Shown here piece by piece: positions 1,334 through 8,586 of a stretch of 64,000 nt of DNA. The notes below the pieces were generated by a model that was not told the origin of the DNA, made no database searches, and saw only the letters and a program-made list of their open reading frames with translations. This stretch comes from Bdellovibrionales bacterium (GTDB taxonomy: Bacteria; Bdellovibrionota; Bdellovibrionia; Bdellovibrionales; UBA1609). The stretch spans positions 192,001 through 256,000 of the forward strand of contig DAHVQG010000002.1 in assembly GCA_027317865.1 (NCBI GenBank). The letters are read 5' to 3'. Numbering within the stretch: position 1 is the first letter of the stretch; each line of letters starts with the position of its first letter. The position numbers were made by a program, and so were the translations under genes.

Positions 1334-1852
1334 TTATAATTCGGCGTCACGCTGAACGCGAACAACACCAATGTGTTGGGCTTGAGCTTTAAATGACGTA
1401 GCTGGATTTTGTACAATCCGCTGCTGAAGCTTTGAAAAAATCGGCTCGCGAATCGCAAGCGAGCTGTCTTGTAAAACGCATTGCCGTGCGATTTTCTTTT
1501 TGGGGTTTACAACAATCGGAGCCTTTAAGTTGGCCGTCATCTGCGTTGGATCGACGGGAATCGTGATAATAGTGAAAAATCGCGCCTCGTCCATCGACGC
1601 AAATCCTAGAGATTCGAAATCTGACTTTGAAAGATCAACAGTATAATGAGGCGAGAACATTTCTGGCTCTAAAACCGGAAACGCTATTTCTGAATCTTCG
1701 CAACTTTGAAGCCATGCAAAGATATCATCGTTTGGATCGTCCAAAAGTACAAACCGGCGCAGATGTCCAAAGCCGAGTAAGCCTTCGGCAAATTCAAGCA
1801 CGTCATCCTGAGTGACGGCCACATCCCCAAACCGTGTCGTTTGGATAGTCAT
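1334..1852 (-). CDS. fliW: Flagellar assembly factor FliW (CsrA antagonist)
   Basis: TTRFG...F.EGLLGF...WLQS...AF.V..P...TANLKAPIV.N motifs; adjacent to csrA; start moved to the ATG at 1852 behind a GGAGGGGG SD. Confidence 0.95.
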   Translation of the reverse strand: MTIQTTRFGDVAVTQDDVLEFAEGLLGFGHLRRFVLLDDPNDDIFAWLQSCEDSEIAFPVLEPEMFSPHYTVDLSKSDFESLGFASMDEARFFTIITIPVDPTQMTANLKAPIVVNPKKKIARQCVLQDSSLAIREPIFSKLQQRIVQNPATSFKAQAQHIGVVRVQRDAEL

Positions 1853-1938
1853 TCCCCCTCCATTTTCGAGGATGCCCTTAAAAATATGACACCGCAAGCC
1901 TAAATATAGGGAAAAATCTATCCCATTGGCGAGTTCAG

Positions 1939-2235
1939 CTACTCGTCGTCACTTGCTTTTGCGCTAATTGATATGCCTTTTTTTGGCGTAACACCGTCAG
2001 ATAAGGCGTCTGATTTCAACAGTTGCGAAACGGCACGCGTTGCGTCAGGGCGCGCAAGAGACGCGTCTTCATTTTGCTTTTTGATAGCTTGGTAGACCTC
2101 TTCACGGTAAATGCGCGTTTCTTTCGGCGCCTCGATACCAAGGCGTACCTGTTTGCCGCGGATTTTCTCAATCCGAATTTTAATATTGTCGTCGATTGTT
2201 ATACTTTCGCCCAGTTTGCGTGTGAGAACCAGCAT
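1939..2235 (-). CDS. csrA: Carbon storage regulator CsrA with the C-terminal extension of FliW-associated CsrAs
   Basis: MLVLTRKLGESITI...QVRLGIEAPK...IYREEVY..I...N..A. Confidence 0.97.
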   Translation of the reverse strand: MLVLTRKLGESITIDDNIKIRIEKIRGKQVRLGIEAPKETRIYREEVYQAIKKQNEDASLARPDATRAVSQLLKSDALSDGVTPKKGISISAKASDDE

Positions 2236-2354
2236 TGTGAAAGGTCTCCTTCAACATCCTAGTCAAAGACTATTCTGTGACCTTAACGGCAGCATCTTGC
2301 CGCCACTTTAGCTAAACTTTGGTGGGTAAAATGTCAAGGTTAACGCGATTGCCA

Positions 2355-3474: not shown

Positions 3475-4896
3475 CTAATCTTTGAGATGCATTACCGTGT
3501 TCATCATCTCATTTGCCACGTTGATCAACCTCGCTGAAGCTTCAAACATTTTTTGATACTCAATCATTTTTTCTGTCTCTTCATCGAGGCTCACGCCGCT
3601 TATACTGTCACGGATATTTTTAATTTGATCCACGATATCTTTCTGTGAAGCCTTTTCTGAATTAGCGCGAGCCGAAGTCGCCCCAACGTCGCCGACAATA
3701 TTATCGTAGAACCCGTCGAACGTACTTTGGCCCTTGCCCATTGCATTTTGATACTCAAGAGATGATATGAGGTTCGCCACGCGGTTGTCGCCAGGAGCGT
3801 TCGGCTGCGCTGCCGCCACTAAGCGACCTGGATCTTCAAGTACAAGTTGATTAACGGCCATTCGCGAAGCGGCGCCCTTTTTATTACCGACGACGAATAA
3901 ATCCACCCCAGGGCGGTTCAACCGATCATAGCCAGACTTATGAATTTGGTTAATTTGAGTTGCGAGCGTGTAGGCAAGGTCATCGACTTTGTCGAGTGTG
4001 TGATTAATGAATTGATCGCGAACTTGTAACAGACCCCCTAACGAACCACCTGTGATTTGTTTTGTAACAACCACCGGCGTTCCGTCGTTAGTGGCCTGAT
4101 AAAATATATCAACGTCACCTTCGGCCTTGCCCTTGCGACCTGGTGTCGACTCAACGGTAAGATTGCGATGCATAGATCCTGATACTAATATCGCGGAGTC
4201 GCCGGCAGTTACGGTGAGTTCGCCGGTTTTACTTTCCGCGTAACGGATATTGATCATTTTGCCGAGTTCTCTAACGAGCTCATCGCGTCGGTCACGTTCG
4301 TCATTAGCCGTAACGCCGTCAATCTCGACCGCCGCAATTTTTTTATTAAGCGAAGCGATTTCACCAGTTATTTTGTTTACGTTTGCAACTTCGTTGTGAA
4401 TTTCAAAATCCGCTTCGCCTTGAATATGCTGGAGGCGCCCGCTCACACCGCGAAAATCTTGAGCCATGAATTTTGCTTGTTCTTTAACCTGATCGCGTAA
4501 CGCGACATTTTCCGGATCGTTTGACATTTCTCGATAGGCATTAAAAAAGGCGTCAATAGACTTATTAAGGCCACCGTGCTGTTGCTCATTAAATACCTGA
4601 TCGACCCGCCCCAATAAACTGGCCCGCGCGTCCCGCTCTCCCTCGACGTTAATCGCCTGTTGAAGTTGCTTTTCAATAAAAGGGTTATGGATTCGTACAA
4701 TTCGCTTTGCAACGGCTCCGTTACCGAGAAGCAAGCGCCCGTCGACCGTTGGGTTAGCCGTTTCGATATCGACTCGCTGGCGGGAATAACCGGCTACGTT
4801 TTTATTGGCGATATTATGGCTGATCGTCTGAAGAGCCGTTTGGCTATTCATCATCGACTGCTTGCCGATATCCATGATCGACCAAATTCGAGACAT
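3475..4896 (-). CDS. flgK: Flagellar hook-associated protein 1
   Basis: SHNIANKNVAGYSRQRV and SGVSLDEE...MIEYQ motifs; start at ATG 4896 behind CAGGAG. Confidence 0.96.
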   Translation of the reverse strand: MSRIWSIMDIGKQSMMNSQTALQTISHNIANKNVAGYSRQRVDIETANPTVDGRLLLGNGAVAKRIVRIHNPFIEKQLQQAINVEGERDARASLLGRVDQVFNEQQHGGLNKSIDAFFNAYREMSNDPENVALRDQVKEQAKFMAQDFRGVSGRLQHIQGEADFEIHNEVANVNKITGEIASLNKKIAAVEIDGVTANDERDRRDELVRELGKMINIRYAESKTGELTVTAGDSAILVSGSMHRNLTVESTPGRKGKAEGDVDIFYQATNDGTPVVVTKQITGGSLGGLLQVRDQFINHTLDKVDDLAYTLATQINQIHKSGYDRLNRPGVDLFVVGNKKGAASRMAVNQLVLEDPGRLVAAAQPNAPGDNRVANLISSLEYQNAMGKGQSTFDGFYDNIVGDVGATSARANSEKASQKDIVDQIKNIRDSISGVSLDEETEKMIEYQKMFEASARLINVANEMMNTVMHLKD

Positions 4897-4901
4897 CGTG
4901 T

Positions 4902-4939
4902 CTCCTGCCTTTTTTGCGAAATTCATCCGTGAATTTCGC
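4902..4939 (-). promoter_or_regulatory. CsrA-type hairpin plus GGA-containing SD in the flgK leader
   Basis: Perfect stem GCGAAAUUC-ACGGAU-GAAUUUCGC followed by CAGGAG overlapping the SD. Confidence 0.65.
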
Positions 4940-5882: not shown

Positions 5883-6563
5883 TCATACTGAGACATTGAT
5901 TTGCCATGCTAAACCTTGCGCTGTGGGAGCAAGAGTACCTAGCTTTTCGCCTGCACTCAGGCGTTCGCCCGGAACTAAGTCGCGACAATGCCCGACAAAA
6001 CTCAGAGTCGAGACAAGACCATTGTCGTGGGCGAGTTTAACCGTTTGACGGTCGTCATTGTGGCGAAAAGCCTGCAAAACCTCGGCGTCTAACGGTGACG
6101 TGACGTCACGAGACTCCAGTTTTGCGCCGTCATTCCACTCATATAAGAAGCTCAACTCTTTTTGCTTACTCGATTGCGGGGACGCCAGCGGTATGCCTAG
6201 AGGTTTTTTATTTTTTTCAATTTTGAACCGCACGTCCTTATTAATTGGAATCGGCCCCTTGATTGGTTGTACGGTGTTTGGGTCAAGATATCTATCTTTG
6301 AGTTGATTGTAGATCAATTGAGCAAGACCAACGCCACCCTGTTGGGACCATTTATCAACGTATTGCTGGTCCAATTGTTGACGGTAGAGCTGTTGGGCGA
6401 ATGTCGGCTTCTGGGCCGGCACAATCGTCTTACGCATGGCCTTAACCATTTCGTCAAGAAAGTATTCTTCATACTGCTTTGAAACGGCTCGCGCCCTGGC
6501 ATCTTCATTCTGCACGGGAGGCTGAAGAGACAATCCGTGCGCGACTTTAAAAACTTGGGCCAT
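5883..6563 (-). CDS. flgJ: FlgJ rod-binding protein with a degenerate M23-like C-terminal domain
   Basis: QYEEYFLDEMVKAMRKT...LDQQY...GGVGLAQLIYNQL is the rod-binding domain; no glucosaminidase domain. Confidence 0.85.
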   Translation of the reverse strand: MAQVFKVAHGLSLQPPVQNEDARARAVSKQYEEYFLDEMVKAMRKTIVPAQKPTFAQQLYRQQLDQQYVDKWSQQGGVGLAQLIYNQLKDRYLDPNTVQPIKGPIPINKDVRFKIEKNKKPLGIPLASPQSSKQKELSFLYEWNDGAKLESRDVTSPLDAEVLQAFRHNDDRQTVKLAHDNGLVSTLSFVGHCRDLVPGERLSAGEKLGTLAPTAQGLAWQINVSV

Positions 6564-6617
6564 ACAAGCCTCCGTGCGCCGGCTTTGTAACGCTGTCGCC
6601 GCCTCGCACTCTAGTTT

Positions 6618-6821
6618 AAAAAAATGAGGGAAAGTGAGTCAGGTGCTACGCGCATCCTGCGCGCTCTTCCAGCAAACTATCGGTAAACTTATCACCTAAA
6701 CATTTGCCCCATGTCTCCTGCCAGACATCTGGAATCTCTTGACCATCCATGGCCAAACGCTCTCTAACTCACTCCTCCCCCCGGGCGAAAAATCCACCAC
6801 ATCCATATGTCAGATTTTTCG
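6618..6821 (-). ncRNA. Putative CsrB/RsmZ-like structured RNA element (multiple GGA hairpins) in the flgI-flgJ spacer
   Basis: Hairpins carrying AUGGAUG (6786-6821 and 6739-6756), CAGGAG (6711-6728) and CAGGAUG (6649-6663); outer stem 6764-6782 pairs with 6626-6642 and is followed by U7. Confidence 0.55.
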
Positions 6822-6824
6822 TTT

Positions 6825-7832
6825 TCATATAACCTTCAACTCCGCCTGCAGTGCGCCTGCGGCTTTAATAGCTTCTAAAATTGTAATCAAATCTTTCGGC
6901 GAAACACCCATTTGATTCATCGCTTTTACAATGGCTCCGACGCTTGCCGAGTTGTTCAGCATAAACATTTTGCCGCCTTTGCCTTTGGATTTTTCCGAAT
7001 TGCCAACGCGAATTGACAAATTACCGTGCGAAATAGCAACGGGCGAAATTTTAACGCCGCTGCCAATCACAACAGTTCCCGTATTTTCATCCACCACAAC
7101 TTCAGCCTTCATATCAGGTGAAACATTCAAGTTTTCAATCGTTGCAAGAAGTTCAACACCTTTGCCTTCGTATGAAGGGGGCGTGATGAGATTAATCGTG
7201 CCCGCGTCAAGAGCCGAGGCATATTGGCCGCCGAGCTCCATGTTAATCGCTTTTACGATTCGAGCTGCCGTCGTAAAATCGGGATTGTGCAGAGTTAAAC
7301 GAAACATGTTTCGGTCGGCGAAATCGCTGCCGAGATCGCGCTCAATGATCGCGCCGTCGGGTATGCGCCCAACTGTTTCATGAACACCGCCTGAATTCGA
7401 CCCGACAAGAATTGACCCTTGTGCTACCGCGTAGGTTTGTTGATTGGCAGCACGTAATGGAGTTTGAACGAGCATTCCCCCACGCAAACTTTTCGCATCG
7501 CCGATCGAACTCACCGTTACATCAATTTGGTTGCCGGCGCGTGCAAAAGGCGGGAGTGTCGCAGTCACAATCACGGCCGCCACGTTTTTTGTGGCTAAAT
7601 TTTTATTATTTAATTTCATTCCTAATCGGTCGAGCATGCGACCGACGCTCGTATTCGTAAATGGCATTTTGTTGTCGCCGGTCCCAGCGAGGCCCACGAC
7701 GAGCCCATATCCCACCAATTGATTTGTTCGCACGCCACGGACATTCGCGATATCTTTTATGCGCTCCGCGTGAGCATTCAAGCCCAATGCGACAATTACA
7801 ATGAGTATTTGTAAAACGATAAATGCTCGCAT
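6825..7832 (-). CDS. flgI: Flagellar P-ring protein
   Basis: RIKDIA...GVR.NQLVGYGLVVGLAGTGD and KAAGALQAEL motifs; start moved to ATG 7832, which gives a signal peptide. Confidence 0.97.
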   Translation of the reverse strand: MRAFIVLQILIVIVALGLNAHAERIKDIANVRGVRTNQLVGYGLVVGLAGTGDNKMPFTNTSVGRMLDRLGMKLNNKNLATKNVAAVIVTATLPPFARAGNQIDVTVSSIGDAKSLRGGMLVQTPLRAANQQTYAVAQGSILVGSNSGGVHETVGRIPDGAIIERDLGSDFADRNMFRLTLHNPDFTTAARIVKAINMELGGQYASALDAGTINLITPPSYEGKGVELLATIENLNVSPDMKAEVVVDENTGTVVIGSGVKISPVAISHGNLSIRVGNSEKSKGKGGKMFMLNNSASVGAIVKAMNQMGVSPKDLITILEAIKAAGALQAELKVI

Positions 7833-7833
7833 G

Positions 7834-8586
7834 TCAGTAATCTCCCAGATCTGCGCCCTTTGCGCTGACAATGTCGAAGTTTCCGTTGAGGAGTTGGGTC
7901 GCGTCGATCCCCTGGTCGTTGAAATCTTCGGAGCGAACAATTCCCGAAACAATGACTTTATACTCGCGCGGCCCAATTAAAAATGTTTGCAAGCCGCGTA
8001 CGCGATAATTGCCATTCACCAATCGGCCAACAACGCGAGCTGGTACCATGTGAACCTTAAAGGCGTAGTTTGAACCGGGATTATTTAACGCCGGCGACTT
8101 CGCCGCTGCGCCTTTCGCACCTTTGACCGCAGTGTTGGCAGGTGCATTAGAAGTCGACGAAGGCGCACGTAAACCGACTATCATCCGCCGCCTTGCCGCC
8201 AACTGCGCCAGCAACTTTGCAATCACTTGCGCCTTAGCAGCAAGCTGAGCCTGAGGGTCGCCGTTAAGTATGATCGGAATCGGATCCCCGACCATGTGTA
8301 CAGTATTTTGCGAAAATAAGTAGGCGCCTTGACCTTGCATCACCCAAAGCGATCCGGCATCACTGCCAAGATGCGCCTGGTGTTCAAGATCTGCAGCCGT
8401 CACATGATGGTATTGCCGATAAATGCTTGGTTCGACATTATTTTGTTCGTTGTAAGTAAGTGGTTGGGGCGCCGCTGGAGCTGGCGAAACTCCGCCATTC
8501 ACAAAATTTCTCCACCGCTCACCGAGTGTCGTGCAATTCGTCAGAGAAAATAAAAATAAAGCAAGCATTATCGCTCTGACGGTCAT
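7834..8586 (-). CDS. flgH: Flagellar L-ring lipoprotein
   Basis: Lipobox LTNC; GSLW...VGD, NGNY.V.G and SGIVR.ED motifs; lies between flgA and flgI. Confidence 0.88.
   Translation of the reverse strand: MTVRAIMLALFLFSLTNCTTLGERWRNFVNGGVSPAPAAPQPLTYNEQNNVEPSIYRQYHHVTAADLEHQAHLGSDAGSLWVMQGQGAYLFSQNTVHMVGDPIPIILNGDPQAQLAAKAQVIAKLLAQLAARRRMIVGLRAPSSTSNAPANTAVKGAKGAAAKSPALNNPGSNYAFKVHMVPARVVGRLVNGNYRVRGLQTFLIGPREYKVIVSGIVRSEDFNDQGIDATQLLNGNFDIVSAKGADLGDY

What the first reader, a model, noticed from the sequence alone, without database searches (positions are those of the whole stretch)
6618..6821. CsrB/RsmZ-like GGA-hairpin RNA embedded in the flagellar operon that encodes CsrA and FliW
Seen in sequence: most spacers in this operon are under 65 nt, but flgI-flgJ is 261 nt. 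On the coding strand it reads as follows: (i) CGAAAAAUCU...ACAUAUGGAUGU...GGAUUUUUCG hairpin (6786-6821); (ii) an outer stem of about 17 bp with G-U pairs and one bulge (GGGGGAGGAGUGAGUUAG / CUGACUCACUUUCCCUC); (iii) enclosed by it, UUGGCCA-UGGA-UGGUCAA, AUGUCU-GGCAGG-AGACAU, one GGA-free long hairpin, an unpaired CUGGAA and CGCGC-AGGAU-GCGCG; (iv) U7 right after the outer stem. Established: CsrA/RsmA binds ANGGA/CAGGA(U)G in hairpin loops. Gammaproteobacteria titrate it with multi-GGA sRNAs, whereas FliW-bearing bacteria (Bacillus, Campylobacter) use the FliW protein. Inference: this is either a processed or terminated sponge RNA, or a CsrA-responsive attenuator gating flgJMNKL-csrA-fliW. Either would combine RNA and protein antagonism of CsrA in one locus.
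Basis: partly seen in the sequence, partly recalled or inferred. Interest (0 to 1): 0.82.

Follow-up and report, generated by a model that had tools for sequence, protein, structure and literature searches.

The report
Conserved GGA-hairpin small RNA beside csrA-fliW
The flgI-flgJ spacer encodes a roughly 205-base small RNA, conserved across predatory Bdellovibrio-like bacteria, that displays five protein-binding-type GGA loops and probably soaks up the regulator CsrA in a lineage thought to rely on the protein FliW for that job.

Summary
Window 6618-6826 (minus strand) folds into a 5' GGA hairpin plus a multi-branch domain closed by a 17-18 bp stem and U7 (-81.8 kcal/mol, z -6.0).

It is single-copy, matches no Rfam family and is not chance. 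A covariance model finds it once per genome in 121 of 151 Bdellovibrionales genomes and in 0 of 127 genomes of other orders of the phylum. In the loci checked, flgI always lies upstream.

Of 46 modelled pairs, 29 show compensatory changes. GGA is kept in the five loops in 68-83 of 83 distinct sequences.

The homologue in genome G166 coincides with APsRNA1 of B. bacteriovorus HD100. That is a 207-nt primary transcript at about 50,000 RPKM in attack phase, against 8-15 RPKM for flgI and flgJ, with no function assigned (PMC3627812).

So this is a discrete sRNA gene, not mainly an attenuator. CsrA sequestration is the best-supported function, but binding is untested. It would be a new, non-homologous CsrA-sponge family coexisting with FliW.

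The parts
6618..6826 (-). Predicted small RNA, about 205-209 nt, orthologue of APsRNA1. The 5' end is placed by homology; the 3' end lies in the U-tract.
   Evidence: Fold. CM R1 match at window 6615-6829, 128 bits. The homologue's mapped ends are 5 nt before the H1 stem and within the U-tract.
6786..6821 (-). H1: 10-bp lower stem and 4-bp upper stem, GGA at 6802-6804 in the context CAUAUGGAUGU.
   Evidence: All 12 pairs vary and 11 of the 12 show compensatory changes (helices 1-2). GGA kept in 82 of 83.
6764..6781 (-). 5' strand of the outer closing stem.
   Evidence: Helices 3-4: 16 pairs, 9 with compensatory change.
6738..6757 (-). H2: 8-bp stem, loop UGGA (GGA at 6746-6748).
   Evidence: GGA kept in 82 of 83. 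CA(N)GGANG context in 63 of 83.
6711..6728 (-). H3: stem AUGUCU/AGACAU, loop GGCAGG. GGA at 6716-6718 straddles loop and stem.
   Evidence: GGA kept in 83 of 83. Stem support from the alignment is weaker (helix 8).
6671..6708 (-). Long GGA-free hairpin at the position where relatives carry H4 (loop AAGGAU). The GGA is lost in this species.
   Evidence: H4 GGA present in 68 of 83. Same-genus G005 and G006 still have it.
6668..6670 (-). Unpaired GGA in CUGGAA, between the H4 substitute and H5.
   Evidence: GCUGGA is kept in 8 of 13 close relatives.
6648..6664 (-). H5: 7-bp stem, loop GGA (6655-6657), context GCAGGAUGC.
   Evidence: GGA kept in 81 of 83. Helix 11 is 99% paired, with 3 of 5 pairs compensatory.
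6626..6643 (-). 3' strand of the outer closing stem.
6618..6624 (-). U7 tract. Together with the outer stem it forms an intrinsic terminator whose 'loop' is the whole multi-branch domain.
   Evidence: Read from the sequence. A U-run follows the stem throughout the alignments. The simple terminator scan misses it because it allows loops of at most 8 nt.
6827..6832 (-). Possible -10 box (TTATAT) overlapping the flgI stop codon. Inferred and weak.
   Evidence: Members with a free spacer carry TAnAAT 9-14 nt before H1, and HD100 has TACAAT 6 nt before its mapped start. No consensus sigma-70 promoter was found in the window.
6825..7976 (-). flgI (P-ring protein), immediately upstream.
   Evidence: Pfam FlgI, 1.7e-117.
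5883..6563 (-). flgJ (rod-binding domain), 54 nt after the U-tract.
   Evidence: Pfam Rod-binding, 2.9e-11.
1939..2235 (-). csrA (98 aa, with the long C-terminal tail of the FliW-partnered type). Its leader has GGA at 2257-2259 and in the Shine-Dalgarno at 2247-2249.
   Evidence: Pfam CsrA, 7.9e-25. Best PDB match 5dmb_D, aligned over residues 2-74. Leader read.
1334..1897 (-). fliW
   Evidence: Pfam FliW, 1e-37.
4916..4939 (-). flgK leader hairpin: 10 bp, loop CGGA. A second GGA follows in the Shine-Dalgarno (4903-4905). Likely an mRNA target of the same CsrA.

Best explanation
The spacer holds an independent small-RNA gene, the orthologue of B. bacteriovorus APsRNA1.

The transcript starts just before H1. 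In this genome that is at or a few bases after the flgI stop codon. It ends at the U7 tract after the long closing stem. The RNA presents four GGA hairpin loops and one single-stranded GGA in this species, and five GGA hairpins in most relatives. Most loops sit in the CA(N)GGA(N)G context that CsrA/RsmE dimers bind with high affinity.

Proposed mechanism (inferred): each RNA molecule binds two or three CsrA dimers. This titrates CsrA away from GGA-bearing leaders such as those of the flagellins, flgK and csrA itself. The RNA is made at very high level in the motile attack phase, when fliW mRNA is low. It would therefore act as an RNA antagonist of CsrA alongside the protein antagonist FliW encoded 4.7 kb downstream.

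Shown: the structure, its conservation and covariation, its synteny, and (in the orthologue, from a paper) a discrete, abundant primary transcript.

Inferred: CsrA binding, sequestration, and the division of labour with FliW.
For: Structure and conservation
- z is -5.99 for the window RNA and -3.92 for the HD100 orthologue, with the same architecture.
- CM R1 finds one copy per genome in 59 of 109 family genomes and 121 of 151 order genomes, covering all 13 families sampled.
- flgI lies upstream in 39 of 39 pattern hits and flgJ downstream in 38 of 39; the one miss is a locus cut short.
- On 83 distinct sequences, 89.3% of cells pair. 29 of 46 pairs and 417 cells carry double changes. 0 of 500 shuffles reach this, and slid controls give 38-52% paired.

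GGA loops
- They are the most conserved feature: H1 82, H2 82, H3 83, H4 68 and H5 81 of 83, while their stems covary.
- The CA(N)GGANG context occurs in 73, 63 and 79 of 83 for H1, H2 and H5.
- In the divergent G128 homologue (40 bits) the outer stem has decayed, yet four GGA hairpins remain.

Discrete sRNA
- G166:499368-499591 coincides with APsRNA1: 499,375-499,581, + strand, 207 nt, start set from TAP+/- data.
- APsRNA1 reads 50,451 RPKM in attack phase and 3,181 in growth phase (PMC3627812 Table 2).
- flgI reads 15 and 9 RPKM; flgJ reads 7.7 and 41 (Table S1).

CsrA system
- The window's CsrA keeps the canonical N-terminal and REEVY motifs and has the long C-terminal tail. FliW is present.
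- 117 of 121 RNA-positive genomes have a csrA hit.
- B. bacteriovorus CsrA represses a GGA-leader reporter (PMC13443453, passages).
- Leaders of flgK, csrA and flagellin genes in this genome carry a GGA hairpin plus a GGA in the Shine-Dalgarno.

Opposite regulation to fliW
- Bd0543 is FliW by Pfam. It reads 41 RPKM in attack phase and 3,077 in growth phase.
Against: - No binding, RIP-seq or genetic datum links this RNA to CsrA in any paper found. The case rests on motifs.
- The RNA is not homologous to CsrB, CsrC or RsmX/Y/Z.
- Five to six GGA sites are few beside the 22 of CsrB.
- The GGA of H3 lies partly in the stem.
- The phylogenetic profile does not separate a tie to CsrA from a tie to the flagellar locus. 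Of 30 RNA-negative genomes, 23 still have csrA. Some of these are filter misses (G128). Others (G010, G024, G027, G031) gave no FlgI hit. The four genomes lacking both RNA and csrA also lack FlgI.
- In this window there is no room for a free-standing promoter and none was predicted. Here the RNA might instead be cut from the flgFGAHI transcript.
- Only 54 nt separate the U-tract from flgJ, so a cis effect on downstream genes cannot be excluded.
- The RNA-seq runs that could be laid were assembled contigs, which show no ends or levels.
Confidence: 0.7

Rival explanations
1. A cis-acting, CsrA-responsive terminator or attenuator. Transcripts coming from flgFGAHI, or from the RNA's own promoter, either stop at the outer stem and U7 or read through into flgJ-flgM-flgN-flgK-flgL-csrA-fliW. 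CsrA bound to the internal GGA hairpins shifts that balance and so feeds back on csrA and fliW. This could coexist with a trans role.
For: - Only 54 nt lie between U7 and the flgJ start, and no promoter was predicted there.
- The terminator stem encloses all the GGA hairpins, so bound protein could affect its folding.
- In HD100 the ratio of flgJ to sRNA signal differs about 80-fold between phases: 7.7/50,451 against 41/3,181.
Against: - The HD100 RNA has its own primary 5' end and accumulates more than 3000-fold above flgJ.
- Downstream genes (flgM 92 and 1,344 RPKM; fliW 41 and 3,077 RPKM, attack then growth phase) change in the opposite direction to the RNA.
- HD100 has a second small terminator hairpin before flgJ.
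- csrA has its own sigma-28-like promoter in the window.
- No alternative anti-terminator pairing was looked for, so none is known.
Confidence: 0.12
2. A structured small RNA with another job, such as base-pairing with mRNAs (as the 2013 authors suggested for their attack-phase sRNAs) or binding a different protein. Under this reading the GGA loops are not CsrA sites.
For: - No CsrA binding data exist.
- The paper proposes base-pairing regulation in general terms.
- The GUGAGUUAG / CUGACUCA core of the outer stem is conserved in sequence beyond what pairing needs, which hints at a further recognition element.
Against: - Five separate hairpins keep the same trinucleotide in the loop while their stems covary.
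- The loop contexts match the consensus quoted for high-affinity CsrA sites (for CANGGANG).
- The gene sits in the csrA-fliW flagellar locus in every genome examined.
- No long single-stranded seed region is conserved.
Confidence: 0.13
3. Merely the 3' untranslated end and terminator of the flgFGAHI operon, with no function of its own.
For: In this window H1 starts 3 nt after the flgI stop codon and the element ends in a terminator.
Against: - A simple terminator needs no 140-nt multi-branch insert with conserved loops.
- The element is conserved order-wide with covariation.
- The orthologue has its own start and vastly exceeds flgI mRNA.
Confidence: 0.05

Closest known systems
APsRNA1 of Bdellovibrio bacteriovorus HD100 (Karunker et al. 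2013, PMC3627812, Table 2)
   Same: - Orthologue. The CM hit in G166 (499368-499591, + strand; 139.5 bits) overlaps the published 499,375-499,581.
- Same place between flgI and flgJ.
- Same fold: H1, then a closed multi-branch domain, then a U-run.
- csrA and fliW lie downstream in both.
   Different: - The paper gives no function, reports no homologues outside B. bacteriovorus and does not mention CsrA (0 occurrences of 'csra').
- In HD100 a 43-nt spacer with TACAAT precedes the RNA. Here flgI abuts it.
- HD100 keeps the H4 GGA hairpin (GAUCACGGAGUGAUC). This species has lost it.
RsmZ / RsmY / RsmX (Pseudomonas) and CsrB / CsrC (Enterobacteria): CsrA/RsmA-sequestering sRNAs
   Same: - Abundant, terminator-ended, non-coding RNA.
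- Several hairpins present GGA in the loop, in an organism that encodes CsrA.
- Size and site number are close to RsmY and RsmZ (recalled: about 120 nt with 7-8 GGA).
   Different: - No sequence or structure homology: no Rfam match even at E up to 10.
- Different architecture, with the hairpins enclosed by one long closing stem that is itself the terminator.
- No GacA/UvrY-type upstream box near it (the motif was recalled).
- Lies inside a flagellar gene cluster.
- The host is a Bdellovibrionota member with FliW. Such RNAs are described for Gammaproteobacteria, which lack fliW (PMC7652899).
flaA mRNA leader of Campylobacter jejuni and hag leader of Bacillus subtilis in CsrA-FliW circuits
   Same: - CsrA-FliW partner system tied to flagellar assembly.
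- RNA with GGA stem-loops that can titrate CsrA; flaA is shown to do so in PMC4894983.
- Flagellin leaders in this genome have the same layout of a hairpin plus a GGA in the Shine-Dalgarno.
   Different: - Those are coding mRNAs with two sites that probably bind one dimer.
- This is a dedicated non-coding RNA with five to six sites and its own terminator.

Membership tests
APsRNA1-type RNA of Bdellovibrionales (model R1 built here) | Significant match to the covariance model over its full length | tested here: met
   Window 6615-6829, minus strand: 128.3 bits, E 3.5e-34, model positions 1-214. The window sequence was in the seed, so the match is by construction. The independent support is that HD100, which was not in the seed, scores 139.5 bits.
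APsRNA1-type RNA of Bdellovibrionales (model R1 built here) | Position between flgI and flgJ, same strand | tested here: met
   39 of 39 hits have flgI upstream and 38 of 39 have flgJ downstream.
APsRNA1-type RNA of Bdellovibrionales (model R1 built here) | 5' GGA hairpin, closing stem plus U-run, and internal GGA hairpins H2-H5 | tested here: met
   H4 has lost its GGA in this species, and an unpaired GGA lies next to it.
CsrB/Rsm-type CsrA-sequestering sRNAs (functional class) | Several GGA motifs exposed in hairpin loops or single strands | tested here: met
CsrB/Rsm-type CsrA-sequestering sRNAs (functional class) | Homology to the Rfam CsrB, CsrC or RsmX/Y/Z models | tested here: not met
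   There was no match at gathering score over the whole window. No Csr or Rsm family appeared at E up to 10 on the element or on the HD100 locus.
CsrB/Rsm-type CsrA-sequestering sRNAs (functional class) | Direct, GGA-dependent binding of several CsrA dimers, and relief of CsrA repression in vivo | not testable with these tools
   Needs EMSA, RIP-seq and genetics. No such data were found in the papers searched.
CsrB/Rsm-type CsrA-sequestering sRNAs (functional class) | Discrete, abundant transcript with its own start and terminator | tested here: inconclusive
   This is met for the orthologue according to PMC3627812. It is not shown for this organism, where the promoter would have to overlap the end of flgI.
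CsrB/Rsm-type CsrA-sequestering sRNAs (functional class) | Transcription driven by a GacA/UvrY-type response regulator through an upstream palindromic box | tested here: not met
   No match within 3 mismatches lies near 6830-7000. The 13 matches in the window are no more than chance, which gives 16.9. The motif was recalled, and presence of BarA/UvrY homologues was not tested.
CsrB/Rsm-type CsrA-sequestering sRNAs (functional class) | Host encodes a CsrA with intact RNA-binding motifs | tested here: met
   csrA was found in 140 of 151 order genomes.
Transcription attenuator / leader | Mutually exclusive terminator and anti-terminator pairings upstream of the regulated gene | not tested
   Alternative pairings were not searched for. 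Expression data from the orthologue argue against a mainly cis role.

The most novel reading that the evidence does not exclude
Bdellovibrionales run a dual-antagonist Csr circuit. A dedicated sponge RNA (the APsRNA1 family), unrelated to CsrB or RsmZ and encoded inside the flagellar cluster, sequesters CsrA during the motile, non-growing attack phase. FliW, whose mRNA peaks in the growth phase, takes over during flagellum assembly. This would be the first case of an sRNA and FliW acting on the same CsrA, and the first dedicated CsrA sponge described outside Gammaproteobacteria. The GGA hairpin plus Shine-Dalgarno leader in front of flgJ in a sister order (G235) suggests the RNA arose from a CsrA-bound mRNA leader that acquired a terminator.
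Probability: 0.55. Interest if true: 0.85.

Novelty: new variant of a known kind. Interest (0 to 1): 0.78.

Why it matters
[quoted passage not shown] This RNA gives a concrete, culturable test case, because B. bacteriovorus HD100 has genetics, an RNA already detected at very high level, and a CsrA shown to be active.

- It assigns a testable function to one of the eight attack-phase sRNAs that have had none since 2013.
- It links CsrA to the attack-to-growth switch of a predator of interest as a living antibiotic. [quoted passage not shown]
- It provides a new RNA family for Rfam: 83 distinct sequences with a covariation-supported structure.

Tried and rejected
- Rfam at gathering and at E up to 10: only chance-level hits (Bacillaceae-1, snoZ242, FtrB and others).
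- REP-like repeat: rejected. There is one copy in the own genome, and the next-best hits have E of at least 0.6.
- Coding: no ORF of 60 aa or more lies in the spacer on the coding strand here. A 100-aa ORF overlaps the HD100 copy but is not conserved.
- Simple promoter and terminator scan: nothing found. The terminator is missed by design, because the scan allows loops of at most 8 nt.
- Loose genome-wide count of GGA hairpins (4-bp stems): not discriminating, with 50 windows at four or more. My first shuffle control for GGA in hairpins was also weak: real mean 4.7, shuffled mean 2.3, and 18% of shuffles reached four or more. I therefore rest on conservation and on the stricter scan.
- RNA runs: 14 RNA-seq runs hold the HD100 stretch, but all are kept as assembled contigs. 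Laying four of them showed presence only. In X10 the assembly breaks inside the RNA into short pieces of depth 2,200-7,100 against 459 for the flanks, which cannot be read as expression level.
- Phylogenetic profile against csrA: it cannot separate linkage to CsrA from linkage to the flagellar locus.
- Model R1 on flgI-downstream DNA of three genomes from other orders: about 10 bits, which is noise.
- GacA box: none.
- The paper's Fig. S1 (predicted sRNA structures, a PDF) and its .doc supplement could not be read. They may show the authors' fold of APsRNA1.

Full report
1. What is there

The window's first 11 kb carry one flagellar cluster on the minus strand. The gene order is flgF, flgG, flgA, flgH, flgI, flgJ, flgM, flgN, flgK, flgL, csrA, fliW (ORFs, Pfam). 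flgI ends at 6825 and flgJ starts at 6563. Those 261 nt are the longest spacer in the cluster; the next longest is flgL-csrA at 119 nt.

- H1, 6786-6821, loop region AUGG/A.
- A closing stem, 6764-6781 paired with 6626-6643.
- H2, 6738-6757, loop UGGA.
- H3, 6711-6728, loop GGCAGG followed by A.
- A GGA-free hairpin, 6671-6708.
- An unpaired GGA, 6668-6670.
- H5, 6648-6664, loop GGA.
- U7, 6618-6624.

Trimmed to 6618-6826, the RNA folds at -81.8 kcal/mol. Shuffles give -57.1 +/- 4.1, so z is -5.99.

2. Not chance, not a repeat, not a known family

The own genome (2.65 Mb, 42 contigs) has one copy. Rfam 15 gives nothing at gathering score across the 64 kb. Only chance-level hits appear at E up to 10 on the element.

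I ran a strict scan of the whole genome for hairpins with a stem of at least 5 bp, a 3-8 nt loop and A(N)GGA. It found 1,159 such hairpins. Only three 210-nt windows hold three or more. One is this element. One is the flgK leader in the same operon. One is an unrelated site on contig C40. A looser definition was uninformative.

3. Relatives

A DNA search of 40 related genomes found the spacer in all 6 genomes of the same genus (E 4e-34 to 3e-58) and, more weakly, in other genera of the family. In 12 such loci it lies between flgI and flgJ.

A pattern built from two conserved blocks retrieved 39 species-level genomes. All are titled Bdellovibrionales, Pseudobdellovibrionaceae or Bdellovibrio, apart from one titled only 'Proteobacteria bacterium'. 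flgI lies upstream in 39 of 39 and flgJ downstream in 38 of 39. The one miss is a locus with only 171 nt of flank.

A covariance model (R1: 43 sequences, 214 positions) gave these counts:
- 59 of 109 genomes of the family.
- 121 of 151 genomes sampled from the order, in all 13 families, and almost always exactly once per genome.
- 20 of 151 genomes sampled from the phylum. All 20 belong to the order, and 0 of 127 genomes from other families match.

Some misses are filter losses. G128 scored 40 bits once the filters were switched off. Other misses are genomes in which FlgI was not found.

4. Structure and motifs

The 99 matches (83 distinct) were aligned to the model, and an RNAalifold structure was computed on that alignment. 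Results:
- 89.3% of 3,707 cells form standard pairs.
- 29 of 46 pairs and 417 cells carry changes on both sides.
- No shuffle out of 500 reaches any of the five measures.
- Sliding the partners by 1-3 columns drops pairing to 38-52%.

H1, the H4 stem, H5 and the closing stem are best supported. H2 and H3 are less well aligned.

The alignment was fitted to R1's partial structure (25 pairs), which favours those pairs. H1's lower stem, H2, H3 and most of H4 were not in R1.

GGA is present at the aligned loop position in the following numbers of the 83 sequences:
- H1: 82
- H2: 82
- H3: 83
- H4: 68
- H5: 81

The context CA(N)GGA(N)G is found in 73, 63 and 79 of 83 for H1, H2 and H5. Dugar et al. 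name that context as the high-affinity apical-loop form (passage). The SELEX consensus I remember, RUACARGGAUGU, is recalled and not from a call.

In H3 the GA of GGA is usually paired.

This species has lost the H4 GGA that its congeners G005 and G006 keep. It does have an unpaired CUGGAA next to that position.

5. Identity with a published RNA

The CM hit in genome G166 lies at 499368-499591 on the + strand of a 3,782,950-bp contig. ORFs in that locus have exactly the coordinates that Table S1 of Karunker et al. 2013 gives for Bd0535 (flgI, 498,325-499,332) and Bd0536 (flgJ, from 499,642).

Table 2 of the paper lists APsRNA1 at 499,375-499,581, + strand, 207 nt. Its expression is 50,451 RPKM in attack phase and 3,181 in growth phase, a 16-fold difference. 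It has no FliA promoter. sRNA starts were set from TAP+/- 5'-end data and ends from coverage (I saw passages and the table, not the whole text).

The mapped start is 5 nt before the H1 stem. It lies 6 nt after a TACAAT box. The mapped end falls in the U-run.

flgI and flgJ read 15 and 7.7 RPKM in attack phase. The RNA is therefore a separate, very abundant transcript there.

The authors assign no function and report no homologues outside B. bacteriovorus. The word CsrA does not occur in the main text. 'APsRNA1' occurs in no other paper of the library.

6. The CsrA context

The window's CsrA (98 aa) aligns best with PDB 5dmb chain D over residues 2-74, including the C-terminal extension. It keeps the MLVLTRK and REEVY motifs. 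That 5dmb is a CsrA-FliW complex is my recollection, not a tool result.

csrA is found in 140 of 151 order genomes. Cross-tabulating the lists:
- RNA present, csrA present: 117 genomes.
- RNA present, csrA absent: 4 genomes, all fragmented assemblies.
- RNA absent, csrA present: 23 genomes.
- RNA absent, csrA absent: 7 genomes.

The profile is not decisive. The four complete or near-complete genomes that lack both also lack FlgI. Four genomes with csrA but no RNA gave no FlgI hit. The RNA therefore tracks the flagellar locus at least as well as it tracks csrA.

In G166 the ORF at 504,164-504,391 is CsrA. The gene listed as Bd0543 'putative transmembrane protein' is FliW. Its mRNA reads 41 RPKM in attack phase and 3,077 in growth phase, the opposite of the RNA.

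Leaders in this genome show the classic CsrA-target layout of a GGA hairpin followed by a GGA in the Shine-Dalgarno:
- flgK: hairpin 4916-4939, Shine-Dalgarno GGA at 4903-4905.
- csrA: GGA at 2257-2259 and 2247-2249.
- At least two flagellin genes.

A 2026 paper shows that B. bacteriovorus CsrA represses a B. subtilis hag reporter, and says little is known of its regulon (passages).

7. Mechanism

Best reading (0.70): a trans-acting RNA that sequesters CsrA.

Steps shown:
- The structure, its conservation and its covariation.
- Single copy and synteny.
- From the paper, for the orthologue: a primary, terminated, abundant, attack-phase-enriched transcript.

Steps inferred:
- CsrA binds the loops.
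- Two or three dimers bind per molecule.
- Binding relieves repression of flagellar and other targets.
- The RNA complements FliW in time.

In this window flgI's stop codon is 3 nt from H1. Any promoter must therefore overlap the end of flgI. TTATAT at 6827-6832 is a candidate. Members with a free spacer carry TAnAAT 9-14 nt before H1. Alternatively, the RNA here is processed from the flgFGAHI transcript.

Rivals:
- A CsrA-responsive attenuator of flgJ through fliW (0.12). It is possible as a second role, because only 54 nt separate U7 from flgJ. The expression data argue against it as the main role.
- Another sRNA function (0.13).
- A plain terminator (0.05).

8. Comparison with known systems, and novelty

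The RNA works like RsmY/RsmZ or CsrB but is not a member of those families: no model match, a different architecture, and no GacA-type box.

It resembles the CsrA-titrating flaA leader of C. jejuni in belonging to a FliW circuit, but it is a dedicated non-coding RNA.

The literature I could search describes sponge sRNAs for Gammaproteobacteria and FliW elsewhere. It calls the two anti-correlated and states that joint action is undetermined.

Searches for 'Bdellovibrio + CsrA' (13 papers), 'CsrA + FliW + sponge + sRNA' (12 papers) and 'APsRNA1' turned up no claim that this RNA binds CsrA. Kulkarni et al. 2006, seen only as a search listing, has no occurrence of 'Bdellovibrio'. The library covers open-licence PMC papers and bioRxiv only, so a subscription-journal report could have been missed.

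Verdict: a real, conserved sRNA gene. It is already detected but unexplained in the model species, and it is a strong candidate for a new kind of CsrA sponge working beside FliW.

Noticed in passing
window 4894-4939 (minus strand): The flgK leader has a perfect 10-bp hairpin with loop CGGA (context CACGGAUG). A GGA follows in the Shine-Dalgarno at 4903-4905. The likely true flgK start is the ATG at 4894-4896, not 4926 as the mechanical ORF list gives. This is one of only three 210-nt windows in the genome with three or more strict GGA hairpins.
   Followed up: partly
window 2233-2310 (minus strand): The csrA leader has a sigma-28-like promoter: TAAA at 2307-2310, 16 nt, then GCCGTTAA at 2283-2290. 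It also carries two GGA motifs, CUAGGAUG at 2257-2259 and the Shine-Dalgarno at 2247-2249. This suggests FliA-driven transcription and CsrA autoregulation.
   Followed up: no
L136 and L137 (own genome, contig C22:83046 and 84234, outside the window): Flagellin genes have leaders with a GGA-loop hairpin (GGUAACACGGAUUGUUACC; ACAUCAGGAUGAUGU) followed by a GGA-containing Shine-Dalgarno, as in B. subtilis hag and C. jejuni flaA. Two further flagellin genes (L139, L140) show FliA-type promoters.
   Followed up: partly
L144 (G234) about 2520-2890; L146 (G235) downstream of flgI: In a genome of another family of the phylum, the flgI-downstream spacer is about 370 nt and dense in GGA hairpins, yet model R1 does not match it. 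In another, the short flgJ leader has a hairpin with loop AGGAA plus a GGA at the Shine-Dalgarno. These are possible analogues or ancestors of the sRNA.
   Followed up: partly
L114 about 1795-1830 (G166): In the HD100-coordinate genome, a second small hairpin followed by a T-run lies between the sRNA's U-tract and flgJ.
   Followed up: no
L149 658-1185 (G166:504657-505184): The gene listed in the 2013 table as Bd0543 'putative transmembrane protein' is FliW by Pfam (4.2e-37). A 75-aa CsrA ORF (504,164-504,391) lies in the gap after flgL and did not appear among the table rows I saw.
   Followed up: yes
L010 (G006) and L011/L032 (G003): Lineage-specific insertions occur. G006 has 46 nt between H5 and the 3' closing strand. 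G003 has about 190 nt, flanked by an inverted repeat, between flgI and the RNA.
   Followed up: no
upstream of H1 in L041, L052, L057, L058, L100-L104, L114: A conserved T(T/G)GNCAC-like box sits about 10 nt upstream of the -10 element of the sRNA. It is too close to be a normal -35 box, so it may be a regulator site.
   Followed up: no
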